NCBI GenBank assembly: GCA_964016885.1
Contig: OZ024745.1
Span: forward strand, 35,216,001-35,280,000
DNA: 64,000 nucleotides
Origin: Eledone cirrhosa
Taxonomy: Eukaryota
Direction: 5' to 3'
Part shown: positions 24,190-57,571 of the stretch, one piece after another
Numbering within the stretch: the stretch's first letter is position 1
Layout: each line of letters opens with the position of its first letter
Program-made: the position numbers and the translations under genes
Notes under the pieces: model-generated
The model's database searches: none
What the model saw: the letters and a program-made list of their open reading frames with translations, nothing else
What the model was told of the DNA's origin: nothing

Positions 24190-27100
24190 TGTATGTATGT
24201 ATGTATGTATGTTATCTTTTTCTCTTAATTTCGAGTATATTTTTGACCAACCACCTTCCTGGTGGCAAGGTTGTAAAAGAAAAGAAATTGTCATTCCTTG
24301 AATTGCAAAATTTTGAAGGGGCCAGCTATCGCAGCCATTTGTAGATTATGAATTAAGGAGCTGCGCTCTTTGTCCGCAAATCCAAGTTCAGTTATACATT
24401 GGTCCAAGCGGGTTGGTATATAACCCGTAGCTCCAATAATGATGGGTATGAAGCTAAAGGCGTATCTTGGATACCGGATTTGTAAACTCCTCATCAATGG
24501 TCCGTAGATGTCCTCCTTCTCCTGTATTTTTCTGATAACGTTTATATCAAGTGGGCAGCTAATCTCCACAACAGAACATGTTTTCAATGTGTGGTCCCAA
24601 ACAACAATATCAGGCCGGTTGTGCTTTAATTTGGTGGCAGTTTTTATTTTCAGGTTCCACCAGTATTCCTTAGTGCCGTCTGTCTCAATATATTCTTCCT
24701 CGTTTGTTTTTAATTTTGTTTTCCGAAGTGCGTTCCAGATGGTTCTAGCTAGCCCATCGTGTCTCATGGGGAGGTAGTAGCGAGATAACATTCTTTCGCA
24801 GCTGGCAACAATGTGGCTTACATCTTCGATCTTTGTTTTACATAGCCTGCATTTATTGTCAACTGATAGCCCTCCTCTTTTGTGCAGCAGATATTTGGTA
24901 TGGAGTTCGTGTTCCTGTATTGCATAGAGATATCCCCCAAGGTGTGATGTCATAAACTTGTCGGAACTCCATGCCAGGCTTTTTGAGTGGTTTATCCCCT
25001 CTATGGTCTGTGTTTTACGTCTCAAGTATCCATGCAAACCTTTTCTGTAAATTGGTCAATTTTTTCATCTTGTTTGACCATTGAATAGGATCTTCCGATT
25101 TCTCTGGGTGAGAGATTTATATCAGGCTTTATTCCATATATCTCCTCCAGATCAGTGGCTATCCTAATGATATTTCTTTATTCATGCTCATAAACCTGGG
25201 CTTGATGGTTGCCAACCCTTTTCTTCTGTTGAAGATGTTGCTTCAGTGTTACTATCCGGATCTCATATGATGTTAATATGGATTTTAGACCCCGGCCACC
25301 TTCCTTGCGTGAGAAGTATAGCCTATCCACATCACCATTGATGTTGAAGTTCCCAGTAACACTGAGAAGTTTGCGAGTTCTAACATCCATCTCACTTAGT
25401 TCTTGCAATGACCAGTTCAGCAGGCAAAATGTTGGCGTTAGAATTGGCACAGCATAAGTATTGTGGGAAATGTACTTGTACGCTGACAGTTCTGATGACC
25501 ATATTTTCTTTACTCTTCTGAGGTATTCAGTTCTTGTTCTCTCCTTATTTATGGGTCCATCATATCTGACATTCTCATCCTGACCAAGATATCTGTAGTT
25601 GTCACCTGACTGTAGACGTTGTATTGTCAGGCCGTTCATCTCTAGATTTCTAGAGGAGGGCACAGCTCTTCCACGTTTTACTGCCAAATATGCACACCTG
25701 GACTCACCAAATTTCATTTTGATGTCTGTTGAAAATTGTGTAATGAGGTCCAATTGTTTCTTGATGTCATTGATATTTGGCCCATACAACTTCAGGTCAT
25801 CAACAAAGAAAAGATGGGAGATACTTCTGGACCCACCTCTTTGTCCACCTTGTTTCCTGAGTAGGTAAATAGTGGATTTAGTGAGAGAACGAAGAGTAGC
25901 ACTGACAAGCTATCACCCTGAAAGATGCCCTTCTGGTAATGTATCTTATCAGACTTAACTTGCTCCTTCTCACCTCTAAGGATCAAATTGGTGTACCAGT
26001 TCTTGGTCAGAGGTTCAACAGCAGCTACCAGTGGTATGGAACTTTGGCTAACTGTAAAGCCTTAACAATCCACCCATGAGGTACACTATCAAATGCTTTT
26101 TGATAGTCCAGCCACACCACAGTCATATTTCTGCGATTCTTTGTTGTTTTTTCTTGATTCCTTTTATTAGGTAGTAGGTGATCTATGCAACCCACACCTC
26201 CCTCTTTCCACCAGCTTGCTCAGGTGTTATAATGTTGTTGGTAGCACAGTGATCCTGTAAGAACAGGTTAAGGTACCCAGTATATAATTTATACATGATG
26301 TTTTGGCAGGCTATTGAGCGGTCATTTTTAGCAAGGGTGGTTTGGCTATTTTTGGGAACGAGGAGAGTAGTGGCAGTTGATAACCATCTGGGCAGTTCTT
26401 GTGTGCCTTTAATGGTTTCTGTAAATAGCCGTATGAGATCTTGCCGATAGAAAGTGAAATTCTTCAACCAGTATCCTGTTATGAGGTCTGAGCCTGGTGA
26501 TTTCCTATTCGACATTTTCTGTAGAGCTGTTTCCAGTATTGACCCATCTATGTAATATTGTTTTATCTGGACATGTTGGCAGTAGTCCTGTTCCAGTTCT
26601 TTTAGCCATTTAGTTTGTTTGTTGAATCCGTCGCCCGTTTCCCATACAGATCTCCAGTAGCTCTCAACCTGTTCATTTACAGAGATTGAGCTTTTGGCTC
26701 CGAAGCTGCGATAAATTGATTTAGGATCTCTGGCAAACAATCTATTTAGCACTTGTCGTTTATGTGCTGTTGACTTATATTTTAGTCTTTTTGTTGTAGC
26801 TGTGAGTTGTTGTTTCAGTTGGTGTAATTTGGAGTTTAAAGTTTTAAATTTTGTATCTCAAAATCGTCTCTCTATTTTTTTTACGTCTTCCTGGTGTCGT
26901 GTGAAGTTGCTCTCTATGTTGCATTTCATAATGACTGCGATTTGTGAGATACTTCGTCTCAGGGACAAAATTTTGCTTTTTAAATTTCGCATCCACGTTT
27001 GTTCAGGCTTTTTGTTCGTATCTTGATTGCGTGGTTTTAGATGTTTTTTCATATGATAGCAATGTGACAGCTGAAACATATAACAAAATGTTAAGCATTT

Positions 27101-37976: not shown

Positions 37977-38430
37977 GATAAATCTACCAAGAGTTTACGG
38001 TAGTGTCCAATCCGTATGAAGAACTCAATGTATTCCGGATATCATGGAAAGAAGAGATGTAATGAAAATCCACTTTCAGTGAAAGATAAACGGTATACAG
38101 AGTCAAGATAAAATATTAAAGAAATAATGAATAAACAATTCCTTATATTAAACAAAAAAAGTTCATTATTTAACGATCGTTTCTAGGGTATATATGTGTT
38201 ATAATTGGTATGCATATTCAACAGATCTATGTACAAAATTATACAAAATTATACAAATTATCAAGATTAAATATACATACCTAACACATATATACGCCGT
38301 CTTCAGAAATAATGAAGTATATATATATATATATTATATAACGAAGGAGGTGTGGTAAGGAACCAGATGGACCACAACCAGAAATAGCCGTCGAAACGGC
38401 TTGAGTATTACCGTCGGGATTAAACATTTT

Positions 38431-38539
<109 letters not shown>

Positions 38540-41192: not shown

Positions 41193-42832
41193 TTTATGAT
41201 TTTTGTATAGAAACATTGACACTTCTATTATACAGACTATCTTATTCTCACTCACCGAGCTGCAATCCTGGGTCAAGCAAAGACCGAGAAAACTGGGCGC
41301 CTGGCACACTGAGTGTGCCCAGGCGCTCACCGCCCTCTGGCAGGCGGATCCGGTTATCAGTGGAGACTCCACCGCAACATTCTATAGAGGGCTGGTACGC
41401 AGCAGGTGCGACGACGCCCTCGGAGAAGCCCTAGACATGGAGGAGGACGAACTGGCCAGCCTGTTCGGTAGGACATTCAGCCCGGGACCTATGGACAACT
41501 TCCAGAAGTCCCTGACCTGGCAGTGCTACCGAGGGGCTTTACCCGTTCGAGAAAGGCTCTACAGACACGGGCGCCCGGGTAGGGACCCCGCCAAAAAGAT
41601 CTGTCCCAGATGCGTGTGCGACGAGGAAACCGTTGCACACGCATTGGTACACTGCTCGGGCGTAGCCGATCTGTGGGGCTATGTCGAACAACTGCTGTCA
41701 AGGGTGGGACCGATCCGGTTGACCACCGAGTCTATTGTAATGATCAAGCCGCCTCCCCCCTTCAAAGATGAAGCAGAGGCGGTGTTTCTGTGCGTAATAG
41801 CCATGGCGAAAGAGGTTGTATGGTGGACGCGTCTGAAAGGACTGAGGTCAGGCACCTTTCTCTCTGGCCAACAACTGGTCCGTTTCTTCCGATATCATTT
41901 CGGAAGAAGGATCAGGATGGAGAGAGAGGTGCTGCACCCCAGTCGTTTTTATGAAAGGTGGGTGAAAGTGGCGAGAATGGCCCGTGTGAATGGGCCTTCT
42001 CTTTACATAAGCCTGTAGGTGGAAAAGAGGAAGGAACGAGGGAGCACCCCCTCTTTGTGCTCCTGAGGAAAAGGGTTGCACACTTTTTTCGGGGGTGTGT
42101 GCGACCCCCCAAGGCGCCTCCTCTCTATTGAGGATTTTGTTAAAAATTTTATTTTTTGTTATATCTTATTTTATTTTTATATTTTGTTATTGCCTCCTCC
42201 TTATTGAGGACGCCTTTTTGTGTAAACTCCCCCCTTTGTACTTGTCCCACTTTTGATGCCCTAGTGGCAAATAAAAGAAACTTATCTTATTTTATATAGT
42301 ATCCTTATGTTAATACATATATTATTACTCTAATGGGAATTGTAACTAAAATTGAGAGTGACAGCCGCAAATACAGTCAGTCCTTCGTTTTTCTATCTAT
42401 CTCTACCATATACTATATATTTGCAATGGTATATAAAATACGATATGAAACAGTGTAGGGGTATGTTAAAATCACAGCGATTTTTTTTTGTGGTTATGTC
42501 AACTTCAAATTAATAACACAAGTCAAATAGTTATAAATGTTAATAAACACAACCACACAAAAAAAAAATCATTATCATTTTAACATAACCCTACACTGTT
42601 TCATATCGTATTTTATATACCATTGCAAATATATAGTATATGGTAGAGATAGATAGAAAAACGTAGGACTGACTGTCGCTCTCAACTTTTAGTTACAATT
42701 CCCATTAGAGTAATAATATATGTGTTAACATAAGGATACTAGGGCTGATTCATTTGCATATGTCTCAGTATATACAATTAGATAGTCTGTATAATAAAAG
42801 TGTCAATGTTTCTATACAAAAAAAATCATAAA
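41193..42832. mobile_element. AT-rich fold-back (MITE-like) element split by a Tx1 insertion
   Basis: 41193-41243 pairs with 42778-42832; 42297-42741 is an inner palindrome. Confidence 0.8.
41247..42282 (+). mobile_element. 5'-truncated Tx1-clade LINE with an open ORF2 C-terminus and a 9-bp TSD
   Basis: ORF homologous to 9040-9800 (WQCYRGALPV, CPRC..EETVAH); ends GTGGCAAATAAAAGAAA; TATCTTATT at 41238-41246 and 42283-42291. Confidence 0.9.
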
Positions 42833-46096: not shown

Positions 46097-46197
46097 AGTT
46101 TAACCCCGACGGCAGAGCTCAAGCCATTTCGACGGCTGTTTCTGGACTCCAGAAATAGCCGTCGAAACGGCTTGAGCTCTGCCGTCGGGGTTAAACT
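46097..46197. mobile_element. Short palindrome made of a duplicated hammerhead 3' half
   Basis: GACGGCTGTTTCTGG-act-CCAGAAATAGCCGTC-GAAA-CGGC(ttgagctct)GCCG-TC-GGGG; single-arm copies at ~38376-38430 and 55573-55625. Confidence 0.75.
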
Positions 46198-46247
46198 TTT
46201 TCATATATATATATATATAAGTAGCTCCACAGCAGTTAGTTCACCAT

Positions 46248-54656: not shown

Positions 54657-54664
54657 AATATTAA

Positions 54665-55035
54665 TAATTGTTTCTAATTTGGAACAAGGCCTGCAATTAT
54701 CCCAGTACATTACTGGCACTTTATTTTATCGAACCCGTAAGGATGAAAAGCAAAGTGAACCTCGGCAGGATTTGAACTCAGACTATAAAGGGGCATAACT
54801 CTAATGTTACAAAGCATAGCTCCGACCTTCTACCGATACTGCGAAAATATTAATTATTGTTTCTACTTTTGGCACAAGGCCAGCAATTAGCCAGAGCATT
54901 ACTGGTACTTTATTTTATCGACCCCGTAAGGATGAAAGGCAAAGTTAACCTCGGCGGGATTTGAACTCAGAATAGCAAGGAACGTAACTCTATACGTCAA
55001 AGGATGGCGTCCGACCCTCTACCAATACTACCAAT
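54665..55035 (-). mobile_element. Two tandem tRNA-derived SINEs
   Basis: Reverse complements of the 18292 family. Confidence 0.85.
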
Positions 55036-55722
55036 CCAAATGGTTTCATTTCAGGCACGAGGCTAGACATTTTTAGGGGTATTTTATTTTATTGACCATG
55101 GAATGTGAGACCACAACGTTTATCCTTCCAGGGTTCATAAAATAAAGTACGGTCAGGTACTGGGGCCGGTATAACGAATTCACTTCTAAAAAATTCCTGA
55201 CATTTTATCTAAATTAGAAACCATTACTACTCGGCGAAGCCCTAATTAACGTTTTCAGGTTTCACCCGAAGAGAAAAAATGAAGGTAGAGAGGGAAATGC
55301 TGCCTTCCAACCAGTTTGTTGAAAGGTGGGTGAGAGAAGCGAGCATGATCCGACTGAATGGGTTTTCTCTGAATGGTATGCGCTTGTGAATTAGAGGAGA
55401 ACATCCGTGAGAGGGCATTCGCCCTAACAGTCAAGTTTAGCACTTGTGATTTTTAAGTTTTATTTATTCCAAGCAAACAATAACTATTCATTGGTGGGGT
55501 GTCTGCCAAAATGGCCAGGTCTCTACAATCACCCCCTCACCCACCCCACACGTTCATATATATATATATATAGTCCAGAAATAGCCGTCGAAACGGCTTG
55601 ATCTCTGCCGTCGGGATCATACTTTCTCATATATATATATATATATATATAAAGGACGTAAAATAAGAAAATATTTTTTTAAAAAAAATTTAAAAAAAAA
55701 TTTTTTTCTTACTTAAATTTTC

Positions 55723-55804
55723 ACTCCAACTAATTAGTTTCTGCAATGGGATAAAGACAGTTATGTAATCCAACTGTCGAGAATTCATTGCGTCATCAGG
55801 AAGT
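55723..55804 (-). ncRNA. Type I hammerhead ribozyme, copy 1
   Basis: Reverse complement of 56609-56690. Confidence 0.85.
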
Positions 55805-56281
55805 CTATTCTCAGTTAAGTCTCCAGGCAATGCGCGGACACTGGCGGCTCATATAAAAATAATAATAATTCGGTAGATCGAACAGCTTGCGAGGACTGAA
55901 TTCTATGTACCGAAATTCTCACTGCTTCAAGTCAAATGGCCGATTCTAAAGAATCAATCACGTGACACAGAGGCTAGTTAGAAGGAATGGGATGGTAAGA
56001 TGACTGACGCCTACTAACACCCCAAAAAAAATTTTTTTAGAAGTGGTTTTGACAAGTTTGCTCGACAAATCAGTGATTTGGAGATAAATATAGATAATTT
56101 AATATATCAACTAACATAAGCGCACAGATGCACGCCCATGCCAGCAAATACACAGGTTATGTCATAGTACCTAGGTGGTTCAATGCAGGAGAATGCAGAA
56201 CAATAATATAAAGGACGTAAAATAAGAAAATATTTTTTTAAAAAAAATTTTAAAAAAAATTTTTTTCTTACTTAAATTTTC

Positions 56282-56363
56282 ACTCCAACTAATTAGTTTC
56301 TGCAATGGGATAAAGACAGTTATGTAATCCAACTGTCGAGAATTCATTGCGTCATCAGGAAGT
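56282..56363 (-). ncRNA. Type I hammerhead ribozyme, copy 2
   Basis: Reverse complement of 56609-56690; 559 bp from copy 1. Confidence 0.85.
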
Positions 56364-56608
56364 CTATTCTCAGTTAAGTCTCCAGGCAATGCGCGGACAC
56401 TGGCGGCTCATATAAAAATAATAATAATTCGGTAGATCGAACAGCTTGCGAGGACTGAATTCTATGTACCGAAATTCTCACTGCTTCAAGTCAAATGGCC
56501 GATTCTAAAGAATTCAGTCCTCGCAAGCTGTTCGATCTACCGAATTATTATTATTTTTATATGAGCCGCCAGTGTCCGCGCATTGCCTGGAGACTTAACT
56601 GAGAATAG

Positions 56609-56690
56609 ACTTCCTGATGACGCAATGAATTCTCGACAGTTGGATTACATAACTGTCTTTATCCCATTGCAGAAACTAATTAGTTGGAGT
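56609..56690 (+). ncRNA. Type I hammerhead ribozyme, copy 3
   Basis: ACUUC-CUGAUGA-[C GCAAUG..GACAGUU..AACUGUC..CAUUGC A]-GAAA-CUAAUUAG-UU-GGAGU; predicted cleavage after 56685. Confidence 0.88.
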
Positions 56691-57167
56691 GAAAATTTAA
56701 GTAAGAAAAAAATTTTTTTTAAAATTTTTTTTAAAAAAATATTTTCTTATTTTACGTCCTTTATATTATTGTTCTGCATTCTCCTGCATTGAACCACCTA
56801 GGTACTATGACATAACCTGTGTATTTGCTGGCATGGGCGTGCATCTGTGCGCTTATGTTAGTTGATATATTAAATTATCTATATTTATCTCCAAATCACT
56901 GATTTGTCGAGCAAACTTGTCAAAACCACTTCTAAAAAAATTTTTTTTGGGGTGTTAGTAGGCGTCAGTCATCTTACCATCCCATTCCTTCTAACTAGCC
57001 TCTGTGTCACGTGATTGATTCTTTAGAATCGGCCATTTGACTTGAAGCAGTGAGAATTTCGGTACATAGAATTCAGTCCTCGCAAGCTGTTCGATCTACC
57101 GAATTATTATTATTTTTATATGAGCCGCCAGTGTCCGCGCATTGCCTGGAGACTTAACTGAGAATAG

Positions 57168-57249
57168 ACTTCCTGATGACGCAATGAATTCTCGACAGTT
57201 GGATTACATAACTGTCTTTATCCCATTGCAGAAACTAATTAGTTGGAGT
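57168..57249 (+). ncRNA. Type I hammerhead ribozyme, copy 4
   Basis: Identical to copy 3 and 559 bp downstream; predicted cleavage after 57244. Confidence 0.88.
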
Positions 57250-57571
57250 GAAAATTTAAGTAAGAAAAAAATTTTTTTTAAAATTTTTTTTAAAAAAATA
57301 TTTTCTTATTTTACGTCCTTTATATTATTGTTCTGCATTCTCCTGCATTGAACCACCTAGGTACTATGACATAACCTGTGTATTTGCTGGCATGGGCGTG
57401 CATCTGTGCGCTTATGTTAGTTGATATATTAAATTATCTATATATATATATATATATATATCAACTAGAAATAGATTGACATATATATATATATATATAA
57501 AATAAACATATGGAACAATCACAGTGGATATGGCGAATGTCTCTCAGACATGACAACCCTTAATTTAATTT

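What the first reader, a model, noticed from the sequence alone, without database searches (positions are those of the whole stretch)
55645..57440. Young hammerhead-ribozyme retroelement (retrozyme-like): 559-nt unit, tandem plus inverted, four intact ribozymes
Seen: a non-coding 559-bp unit repeats in tandem on each side of an inversion. Each copy holds a full type I hammerhead: stem I ACUUC/GGAGU, CUGAUGA, a long two-tier stem II (GCAAUG/CAUUGC plus GACAGUU/AACUGUC), GAAA, palindromic CUAAUUAG in stem III, and a GUU cleavage triplet. Units are essentially identical, so the insertion is recent. Established: tandem type I HHR repeats define animal non-LTR retrozymes, which yield circular RNAs, and Penelope-like elements show pLTR hammerheads, partial tandems and inverted ends. 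Inference: transcription either way would release an exact 559-nt monomer (56686-57244 on +) that could circularise and be mobilised in trans by a PLE reverse transcriptase. I do not know of this family being described in cephalopods, but could not search.
Basis: partly seen in the sequence, partly recalled or inferred. Interest (0 to 1): 0.88.

Follow-up and report, generated by a model that had tools for sequence, protein, structure and literature searches.

The report
Hammerhead retrozyme with paired Penelope-type ends
This is one young copy of a protein-free jumping repeat whose hammerhead (predicted self-cutting RNA) motif occurs about 10,000 times in this animal genome; all 38 two-armed insertions scored end at one each of two fixed points, as an intact Penelope retrotransposon of the same genome does, so a Penelope enzyme likely copies it, probably round a small RNA circle.

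Summary
Observation confirmed: two divergent arms (1.56 and 1.68 units of a 559-nt non-coding unit) carry four type I hammerhead motifs inside a (TA)n tract. The hammerhead pattern has 9,989 hits in the genome (control 0), and stem II covaries strongly across subfamilies. Rfam does not detect it: long two-tier stem II, C·A at its base, GUU site. Outer ends fall at only two unit positions about 119 nt apart, and 38 of 38 two-armed insertions use one of each. An intact 784-aa Penelope-like element (PLE) of this genome shows the same rule (12 of 12, 39-nt tail). This fits the published two-site internal initiation of PLE reverse transcriptase. Arms cross up to 7 cleavage sites, private variants fill whole insertions, and an internal strand is predicted to pair across the cut/ligation junction, so a circle is the likely template. 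Correction: read-through of this locus would form an 817-bp hairpin burying the ribozymes. Cleavage, expression, circles and the helper PLE are not shown. The scan reported this kind of element before on other octopus DNA. Verdict: new variant of the metazoan non-LTR retrozymes.

The parts
55643..56513 (-). Left arm, 871 nt (1.56 units), 5'-truncated at unit position 333, ends at the short 3' site (unit ~76-84) fused to (TA)n
56509..57447 (+). Right arm, 939 nt (1.68 units), 5'-truncated at unit position 383, ends at the long 3' site (unit ~194-203) fused to (TA)n
56686..57244 (+). Full 559-nt unit between two predicted cleavage sites; 35% GC; longest ATG ORF 55 aa
55728..56286 (-). Full 559-nt unit, identical to the + unit
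56609..56690 (+). Hammerhead motif 1 (core 56614-56620, C 56621 / A 56671 unpaired, stems IIa and IIb, GAAA 56672-56675, palindrome 56676-56683, predicted cut after 56685)
57168..57249 (+). Hammerhead motif 2, predicted cut after 57244
56282..56363 (-). Hammerhead motif 3
55723..55804 (-). Hammerhead motif 4
56509..56513 (.). 5-nt overlap (microhomology) joining the two 5'-truncated arms
57328..57447 (+). About 119-nt 'tail' present at the outer end of this arm only: the stretch between the two inferred RT start sites, holding a long conserved hairpin
56982..56998 (+). Internal strand (unit 297-313) predicted to pair across the cleavage/ligation junction
56601..56634 (+). Candidate pseudoknot between GAGAAU (56601-56606) and AUUCUC in the stem II internal loop (56629-56634); weaker support
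55629..55650 (.). (TA)n target tract, left
57439..57461 (.). (TA)n target tract, right

Best explanation
This locus is a young two-armed insertion of an abundant non-coding hammerhead repeat family (a metazoan retrozyme variant) that is likely copied by the reverse transcriptase/GIY-YIG protein of a Penelope-like element from a predicted 559-nt RNA circle. Shown: no ORF; a covarying hammerhead fold; (TA)n targets; two fixed 3' ends about 119 nt apart with one of each per two-armed insertion; variable 5' ends joined by microhomology; arms that run through up to 7 cleavage sites. Inferred steps: (1) some one-armed multi-unit array is transcribed; (2) adjacent hammerheads pair through the CUAAUUAG palindrome and cut after GUU; (3) the internal strand at unit 297-313 holds the two new ends together for a host ligase and then keeps the circle from refolding into the ribozyme; (4) a PLE protein, probably a dimer, binds the tail region, nicks both strands of a (TA)n tract and primes one cDNA from each nick, one at each start site; (5) both cDNAs run round the circle for up to about 4 kb and are joined at a short microhomology.
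For: Ends: 63 of 63 arms in 40 loci end at unit 81-84 (36) or 199-203 (27); 23 of 23 two-armed loci have one of each. The rule holds in 15 of 15 scored divergent arm pairs from 40 more loci of 520-560-nt subfamilies. Positive control: an intact 784-aa RT + GIY-YIG PLE ends in (TA)n at two sites 39 nt apart, one of each in 12 of 12 two-armed loci among 20. Published: PLE insertions carry an inverted 5'-truncated copy and a tail on one end (10.1101/2021.04.23.441226); the tail lies between two internal RT start sites and both DNA strands are cut and extended (PMC11167929). Hammerhead: 93.8% of cells paired, 8 of 17 pairs with changes on both sides, score 0.385 against 0.164 shuffled and at most 0.109 slid. 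Position 17 is not U in only 73 hits (36 A, 28 C, 9 G, counted by hand) against 9,989 with U, and the one subfamily that amplified with another letter uses cleavable GUA. Short stem II: 38 hits, sporadic deletion derivatives. One-unit template: 61 of 63 arms cross at least one cut site, 53 at least two, and none starts at unit 1-5; 6 private substitutions fill every unit of their locus, 4 of them across both arms; tract lengths match within loci 117 of 336 and between loci 242 of 4035, with no same-rank excess between arms (12 of 37 against 50 of 141). The best internal partner of the junction lies at the same place in 18 of 18 units; stem I probability in the circle is under 0.2 in 15 of 18.
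Against: No cleavage assay, transcript or circle is shown. The helper was not found: no sequence likeness to three intact PLE families, and the 119-nt tail is far longer than the 39 nt measured here or the published 30-40 nt. In vitro, an anole PLE used unprocessed RNA and needed no ribozyme cut, and 8 of 9 Xenopus retrozyme dimers did not cleave. One variant lies at the same rank in both arms of L043, as a linear multimer template would give; two variants shared by neighbouring units (L038, L048) point to spreading after insertion, which could also homogenise arrays. Homogeneous source arrays would mimic a circle. The junction duplex beats shuffles at p<=0.05 in only 9 of 18 units (20 of 200 shuffles as good for this window's unit), and 3 of 18 circles favour stem I instead. 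Core columns of the hammerhead alignment are invariant because the search pattern fixed them.
Confidence: 0.7

Rival explanations
1. Same element and same PLE helper, but the template is a linear, uncut multi-unit transcript. The slow GUU hammerhead only trims some transcripts or acts late; no circle is needed.
For: Unprocessed RNA was the main substrate of the anole PLE in vitro (PMC11167929); same-rank variant in both arms of L043; non-canonical C·A and GUU; the internal strand could block the ribozyme in multimers too.
Against: Private variants fixed in all units of both arms; no rank correlation of tract lengths between arms; arms up to 7.3 units despite 5' truncation at every insertion; position 17 stays cleavable in amplifying subfamilies.
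Confidence: 0.2
2. The repeats are terminal stumps or deletion derivatives of an autonomous PLE (pLTR fragments), not an independently replicating retrozyme.
For: The insertion layout is that of a PLE; 24 of 57 Xenopus retrozyme families resemble known TEs, nearly all PLEs; only three PLE families were compared here.
Against: The whole 520-560-nt unit repeats head to tail and is conserved across subfamilies (80% mean column identity); no ORF; no link to RT sequence in 80 loci beyond separate neighbouring insertions; no short-stem relative that could mark a parent.
Confidence: 0.07
3. A satellite spread by DNA-level recombination, or an assembly artefact, with a chance or vestigial hammerhead.
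For: Tandem and palindromic DNA between microsatellites is hard to assemble; the junction of this locus was not checked in reads.
Against: 38 of 38 paired ends with different central junctions; covariation; contigs of four runs hold parts of the unit, and X1 shows the two common variants seen in the assembly.
Confidence: 0.03

Closest known systems
Metazoan non-LTR retrozymes of coral, mussel and axolotl (Cervera and de la Pena 2020, PMC7229834, parts 2-4 of 6 read, supplement not readable; Li, Clavereau and Pollet, bioRxiv 10.64898/2026.07.22.740005, parts 1-3 of 5 read)
   Same: Non-coding tandem units, one type I hammerhead per unit, GC under 50%, short palindromic stem III suited to dimer cleavage, thousands of copies, co-occurrence with PLEs.
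   Different: 559-nt unit (150-450 in the 2020 paper, up to 972 in the preprint); long two-tier stem II with C·A at its base and a GUU site; predicted self-blocking of the circle, which the 2020 paper reports as unusual for animal retrozymes; fixed paired 3' ends and inverted arms, not described for retrozymes in the parts read; no pLTR homology found; cleavage and circles untested.
Endonuclease-bearing Penelope-like elements (Craig et al. 2021, 10.1101/2021.04.23.441226, passages read; Frangieh et al. 2024, PMC11167929, parts 1-3 of 4 read)
   Same: Inverted 5'-truncated copy, partial tandems, tail on one end, AT-rich or (TA)n targets, hammerhead upstream of the 3' ends.
   Different: No RT or endonuclease ORF; tail about 119 nt instead of 30-40; up to 7 full units per arm.
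PLE minimal hammerheads (Cervera and de la Pena 2014, PMC4209133, passages read)
   Same: Large helix II, unpaired base at the 5' end of stem II, palindromic helix III, dimer cleavage.
   Different: Second helix and internal loop in stem II, a candidate Watson-Crick pseudoknot to the stem I 5' strand, U at position 17.

Membership tests
Metazoan non-LTR retrozyme | Tandem units, at least two consecutive with a complete type I hammerhead | tested here: met
   Two consecutive motifs on each arm, 559 nt apart
Metazoan non-LTR retrozyme | No protein coding, no LTR structure, GC under 50% | tested here: met
   Longest ATG ORF 55 aa, GC 35%; no LTR pair; PBS and PPT not searched
Metazoan non-LTR retrozyme | Unit of a few hundred bases, dispersed in many copies | tested here: met
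   520-560 nt, inside the 51-972 range of the 2026 preprint but above the 150-450 of the 2020 paper; 9,989 motifs
Metazoan non-LTR retrozyme | Co-occurrence with autonomous PLEs | tested here: met
   Open frames of 784, 822-828 and 711-715 aa in three families
Metazoan non-LTR retrozyme | Homology to a PLE pLTR (seen in part of the Xenopus families) | tested here: inconclusive
   None to three families; other PLE families of the genome not examined
Metazoan non-LTR retrozyme | Self-cleavage of the transcript | not testable with these tools
   Only indirect: covariation and position 17 usage
Metazoan non-LTR retrozyme | Expression as linear and circular monomer RNA | not testable with these tools
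   No raw RNA reads were available to lay
Metazoan non-LTR retrozyme | Target-site duplication longer than 4 bp when present | tested here: inconclusive
   Hidden by (TA)n on both sides
Type I hammerhead ribozyme | Core CUGANGA...GAAA...UH with three helices, stem I open | tested here: met
   stem III is 2 bp plus a palindrome that pairs between two copies in cofold and in the right-arm fold
Canonical hammerhead (Rfam models) | G10.1-C11.1 pair, short stem II, Rfam score | tested here: not met
   C·A instead; only 3 hits with neither letter, none G-C; no Rfam match. It works like a type I hammerhead but is not filed under an Rfam family.
Autonomous Penelope-like element | RT plus GIY-YIG ORF | tested here: not met
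   No ORF in the unit
PLE-type insertion | Inverted 5'-truncated copy, tail on one end, microsatellite target | tested here: met
   38 of 38 scored arm pairs; control 12 of 12

The most novel reading that the evidence does not exclude
A 559-nt self-splinting ribozyme circle hijacks a PLE protein dimer that primes both target strands at once from two fixed sites on one circle and rolls round it. The long stem II pseudoknot and slow GUU site form a switch that cuts only in multimers and stays shut in the circle. This would be insertion-level proof of rolling-circle retrotransposition of an animal circular RNA.
Probability: 0.4. Interest if true: 0.8.

Novelty: new variant of a known kind. Interest (0 to 1): 0.6.

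Why it matters
Which enzyme spreads animal retrozymes, and whether it copies a circle, has been proposed from co-occurrence and pLTR likeness, not shown. Here the two RT start sites, the target and the template can be read from the insertions, next to an intact PLE with the same rule. That gives defined reagents (a 559-nt RNA, a (TA)n target, candidate PLE proteins) for the existing in vitro PLE assay. The strict one-short, one-long pairing also constrains how PLEs prime their two strands.

Tried and rejected
Rfam: no hammerhead hit. One search used a mis-registered structure string and is discarded; one search is the corrected count. Sequencing runs: no RNA holder listed; reads were laid on part of the unit only and all runs were contigs, so the central junction of this locus, strand and expression stay open; the high summed depth in X1 is not used. 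Helper search: blastn and a profile of 18 units against loci of the 784-aa, 822-aa, 715-aa and a decayed family gave only separate neighbouring insertions; no short-stem parent. Linear cleaved monomers as template: rejected, since 0 of 63 arms start at unit 1-5. An AT-rich repeat beside 6 loci was considered as a template-switch partner and rejected: it flanks both sides in L058, so it is a target. Print: searches listed no paper on a cephalopod retrozyme or on paired ends in retrozymes; one search listed none on this hammerhead variant. The library lacks most subscription papers, PMC5785218 (PLE hammerhead variants) is not held, and the supplement of PMC7229834, which may list other molluscs, could not be read.

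Full report
Observation. The window holds two divergent arms of a 559-nt unit: minus 55643-56513 and plus 56509-57447, sharing 5 nt at the centre and running out into (TA)n on both sides. The two full units are identical. Four hammerhead cores are present. Rfam finds no hammerhead. The unit is 35% GC with no ORF over 55 aa. The host is probably an octopus; this rests on my recall of its repeat landscape and on earlier scan notes, not on a call.

Family. A search of the own genome with the unit gave 246 matches from 40 scored of 585 candidates, most listed full-length matches 98-100% identical, on many chromosomes. A hammerhead pattern gave 9,989 hits, control 0. Subfamilies have units of 520-560 nt and 80% mean column identity over 18 units.

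The hammerhead is under selection. On 57 distinct motifs, 93.8% of cells pair, 8 of 17 pairs change on both sides, and the covariation score is 0.385 against 0.164 for shuffles and at most 0.109 for slid controls. The signal is in stems IIa and IIb; the core and stem III were fixed by my pattern and say nothing. Patterns that free those positions show how fixed they are. Position 17 is other than U in 73 hits: 36 A, 28 C, 9 G by hand count. About 22 of the A hits form one amplified subfamily; GUA and GUU are cleavable triplets and GUG is not (PMC3138052, passages). That GUU is slower than GUC is recalled. Only 3 hits lack both the C and the A at the stem II base, and 38 have a short stem II. 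A possible pseudoknot between GAGAAU and AUUCUC has 10 cells changed on both sides against 4.1 expected, 84% paired; it is suggestive only.

Insertion rule. In the 40 best-scoring loci, all 63 arms end at unit 81-84 (36) or 199-203 (27), each at a TATAT shared with the target; one older neighbouring copy in L046 was left out. All 23 two-armed loci have one short and one long end. In 40 further loci that I picked from the first 100 pattern hits to cover subfamilies, 15 of 15 divergent pairs with both ends scored follow the rule; L167 (two convergent, separate insertions) and L151, L159, L160 (one end not scored) were left out. The 5' ends vary. As control, a young PLE with intact 784-aa frames (RT and GIY-YIG) ends in (TA)n at two sites 39 nt apart, one of each in 12 of 12 two-armed loci among 20 fetched. 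Craig et al. describe the inverted copy and the one-sided tail (passages). Frangieh et al. show that the tail lies between two internal RT start sites, that both strands are nicked and extended, and predict a dimer. The two ends of this family are therefore read as PLE RT start sites (inference).

Template. 61 of 63 arms cross a predicted cut site, 53 cross two or more, the maximum is 7, and none begins at unit 1-5, so cut linear monomers are not the template. Six private substitutions fill every unit of their locus, four across both arms; of 22 partial variants only one (a common allele, in L052) occurs in another locus. Homopolymer tract patterns match within loci (117 of 336) far more than between loci (242 of 4035) and show no same-rank excess between arms (12 of 37 against 50 of 141); sequencing noise lowers the power of this test. 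Against a circle: one variant at rank 3 in both arms of L043 and two variants shared by neighbouring units. The consensus circular fold pairs unit 1-7 with 298-303 and 551-558 with 305-312. The junction's best internal partner is at this place in 18 of 18 units, significant against block shuffles in 9 of 18; stem I is below 0.2 in 15 of 18 circles. Two copies pair through the palindrome, the dimer route described for short helix III hammerheads (passages). This fits cutting in multimers and a shut circle (inference).

This locus. Read-through from a flank folds into an 817-bp hairpin that takes up both sense hammerheads completely. A conserved CACGTG at unit 323 is missing from both first partial units; whether it is a promoter is unknown. 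The locus is likely a progeny copy.

Helper and expression. No likeness was found between the unit and three intact PLE families or a decayed one. No RNA holder was listed. Contigs of four runs hold parts of the unit, and X1 shows the two common variants of the assembly; X1 may be the source sample.

Comparison and verdict. It meets the sequence-level features of metazoan non-LTR retrozymes; cleavage and circular RNA cannot be tested here, and 8 of 9 Xenopus dimers did not cleave. It is not an autonomous PLE and not an Rfam-type hammerhead. Searches listed no paper on this family or on paired ends in retrozymes; supplements and subscription papers were not seen. The scan's own notes report the same kind of element on other octopus DNA; I had reached this reading before seeing them, and they are not evidence. 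Class: new variant of a known kind. Interest 0.6.

Noticed in passing
window 55574-55628, also 46105-46219 (inverted pair) and 38378-38454: A 70-77-nt repeat with a GCCGTCGAAACGGC hairpin abuts the left (TA)n tract. It may be the scrambled-hammerhead repeat of earlier scan notes; not tested.
   Followed up: no
L101-L120 (G000): Very young Neptune-like PLE (clade name from the CX4CX2C linker), many intact 784-aa frames, 1.2-kb microsatellite-rich 3' region, 39-nt tail, and no canonical hammerhead found by my scan.
   Followed up: partly
L203-L210, L122, L123: A second intact PLE family (822-828 aa) with a minimal hammerhead about 1.35 kb after the stop, ending in (TA)n.
   Followed up: partly
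L215-L222: A third PLE family with 711-715-aa frames and a CPLxGxC motif before GIY-YIG; its 3' ends were not resolved.
   Followed up: partly
L103 7648-8333; L114 7144-8701: Two unrelated hammerhead tandem families (310-nt and about 500-560-nt periods), one with inverted arms: likely further retrozymes.
   Followed up: no
L031, L033, L050, L064, L067: Five of 63 arms have their 5' end at unit 540-547, at the foot of stem II, against about 0.9 expected; possibly RT stalling at the folded stem (not corrected for multiple tests).
   Followed up: partly
window 62567 (+), 47387 (-), 33141 (-): Single minimal PLE-type hammerhead motifs.
   Followed up: no
window 54657-55029: 189-nt tandem pair resembling a common octopus interspersed repeat (recalled).
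   Followed up: no
window 24294-26857 (-) and 41200-42015 (+): Broken LINE-type frames with zf-RVT matches.
   Followed up: no
L036, L045, L058, L061, L065, L066 flanks: An AT-rich repeat that this element often inserts into.
   Followed up: partly
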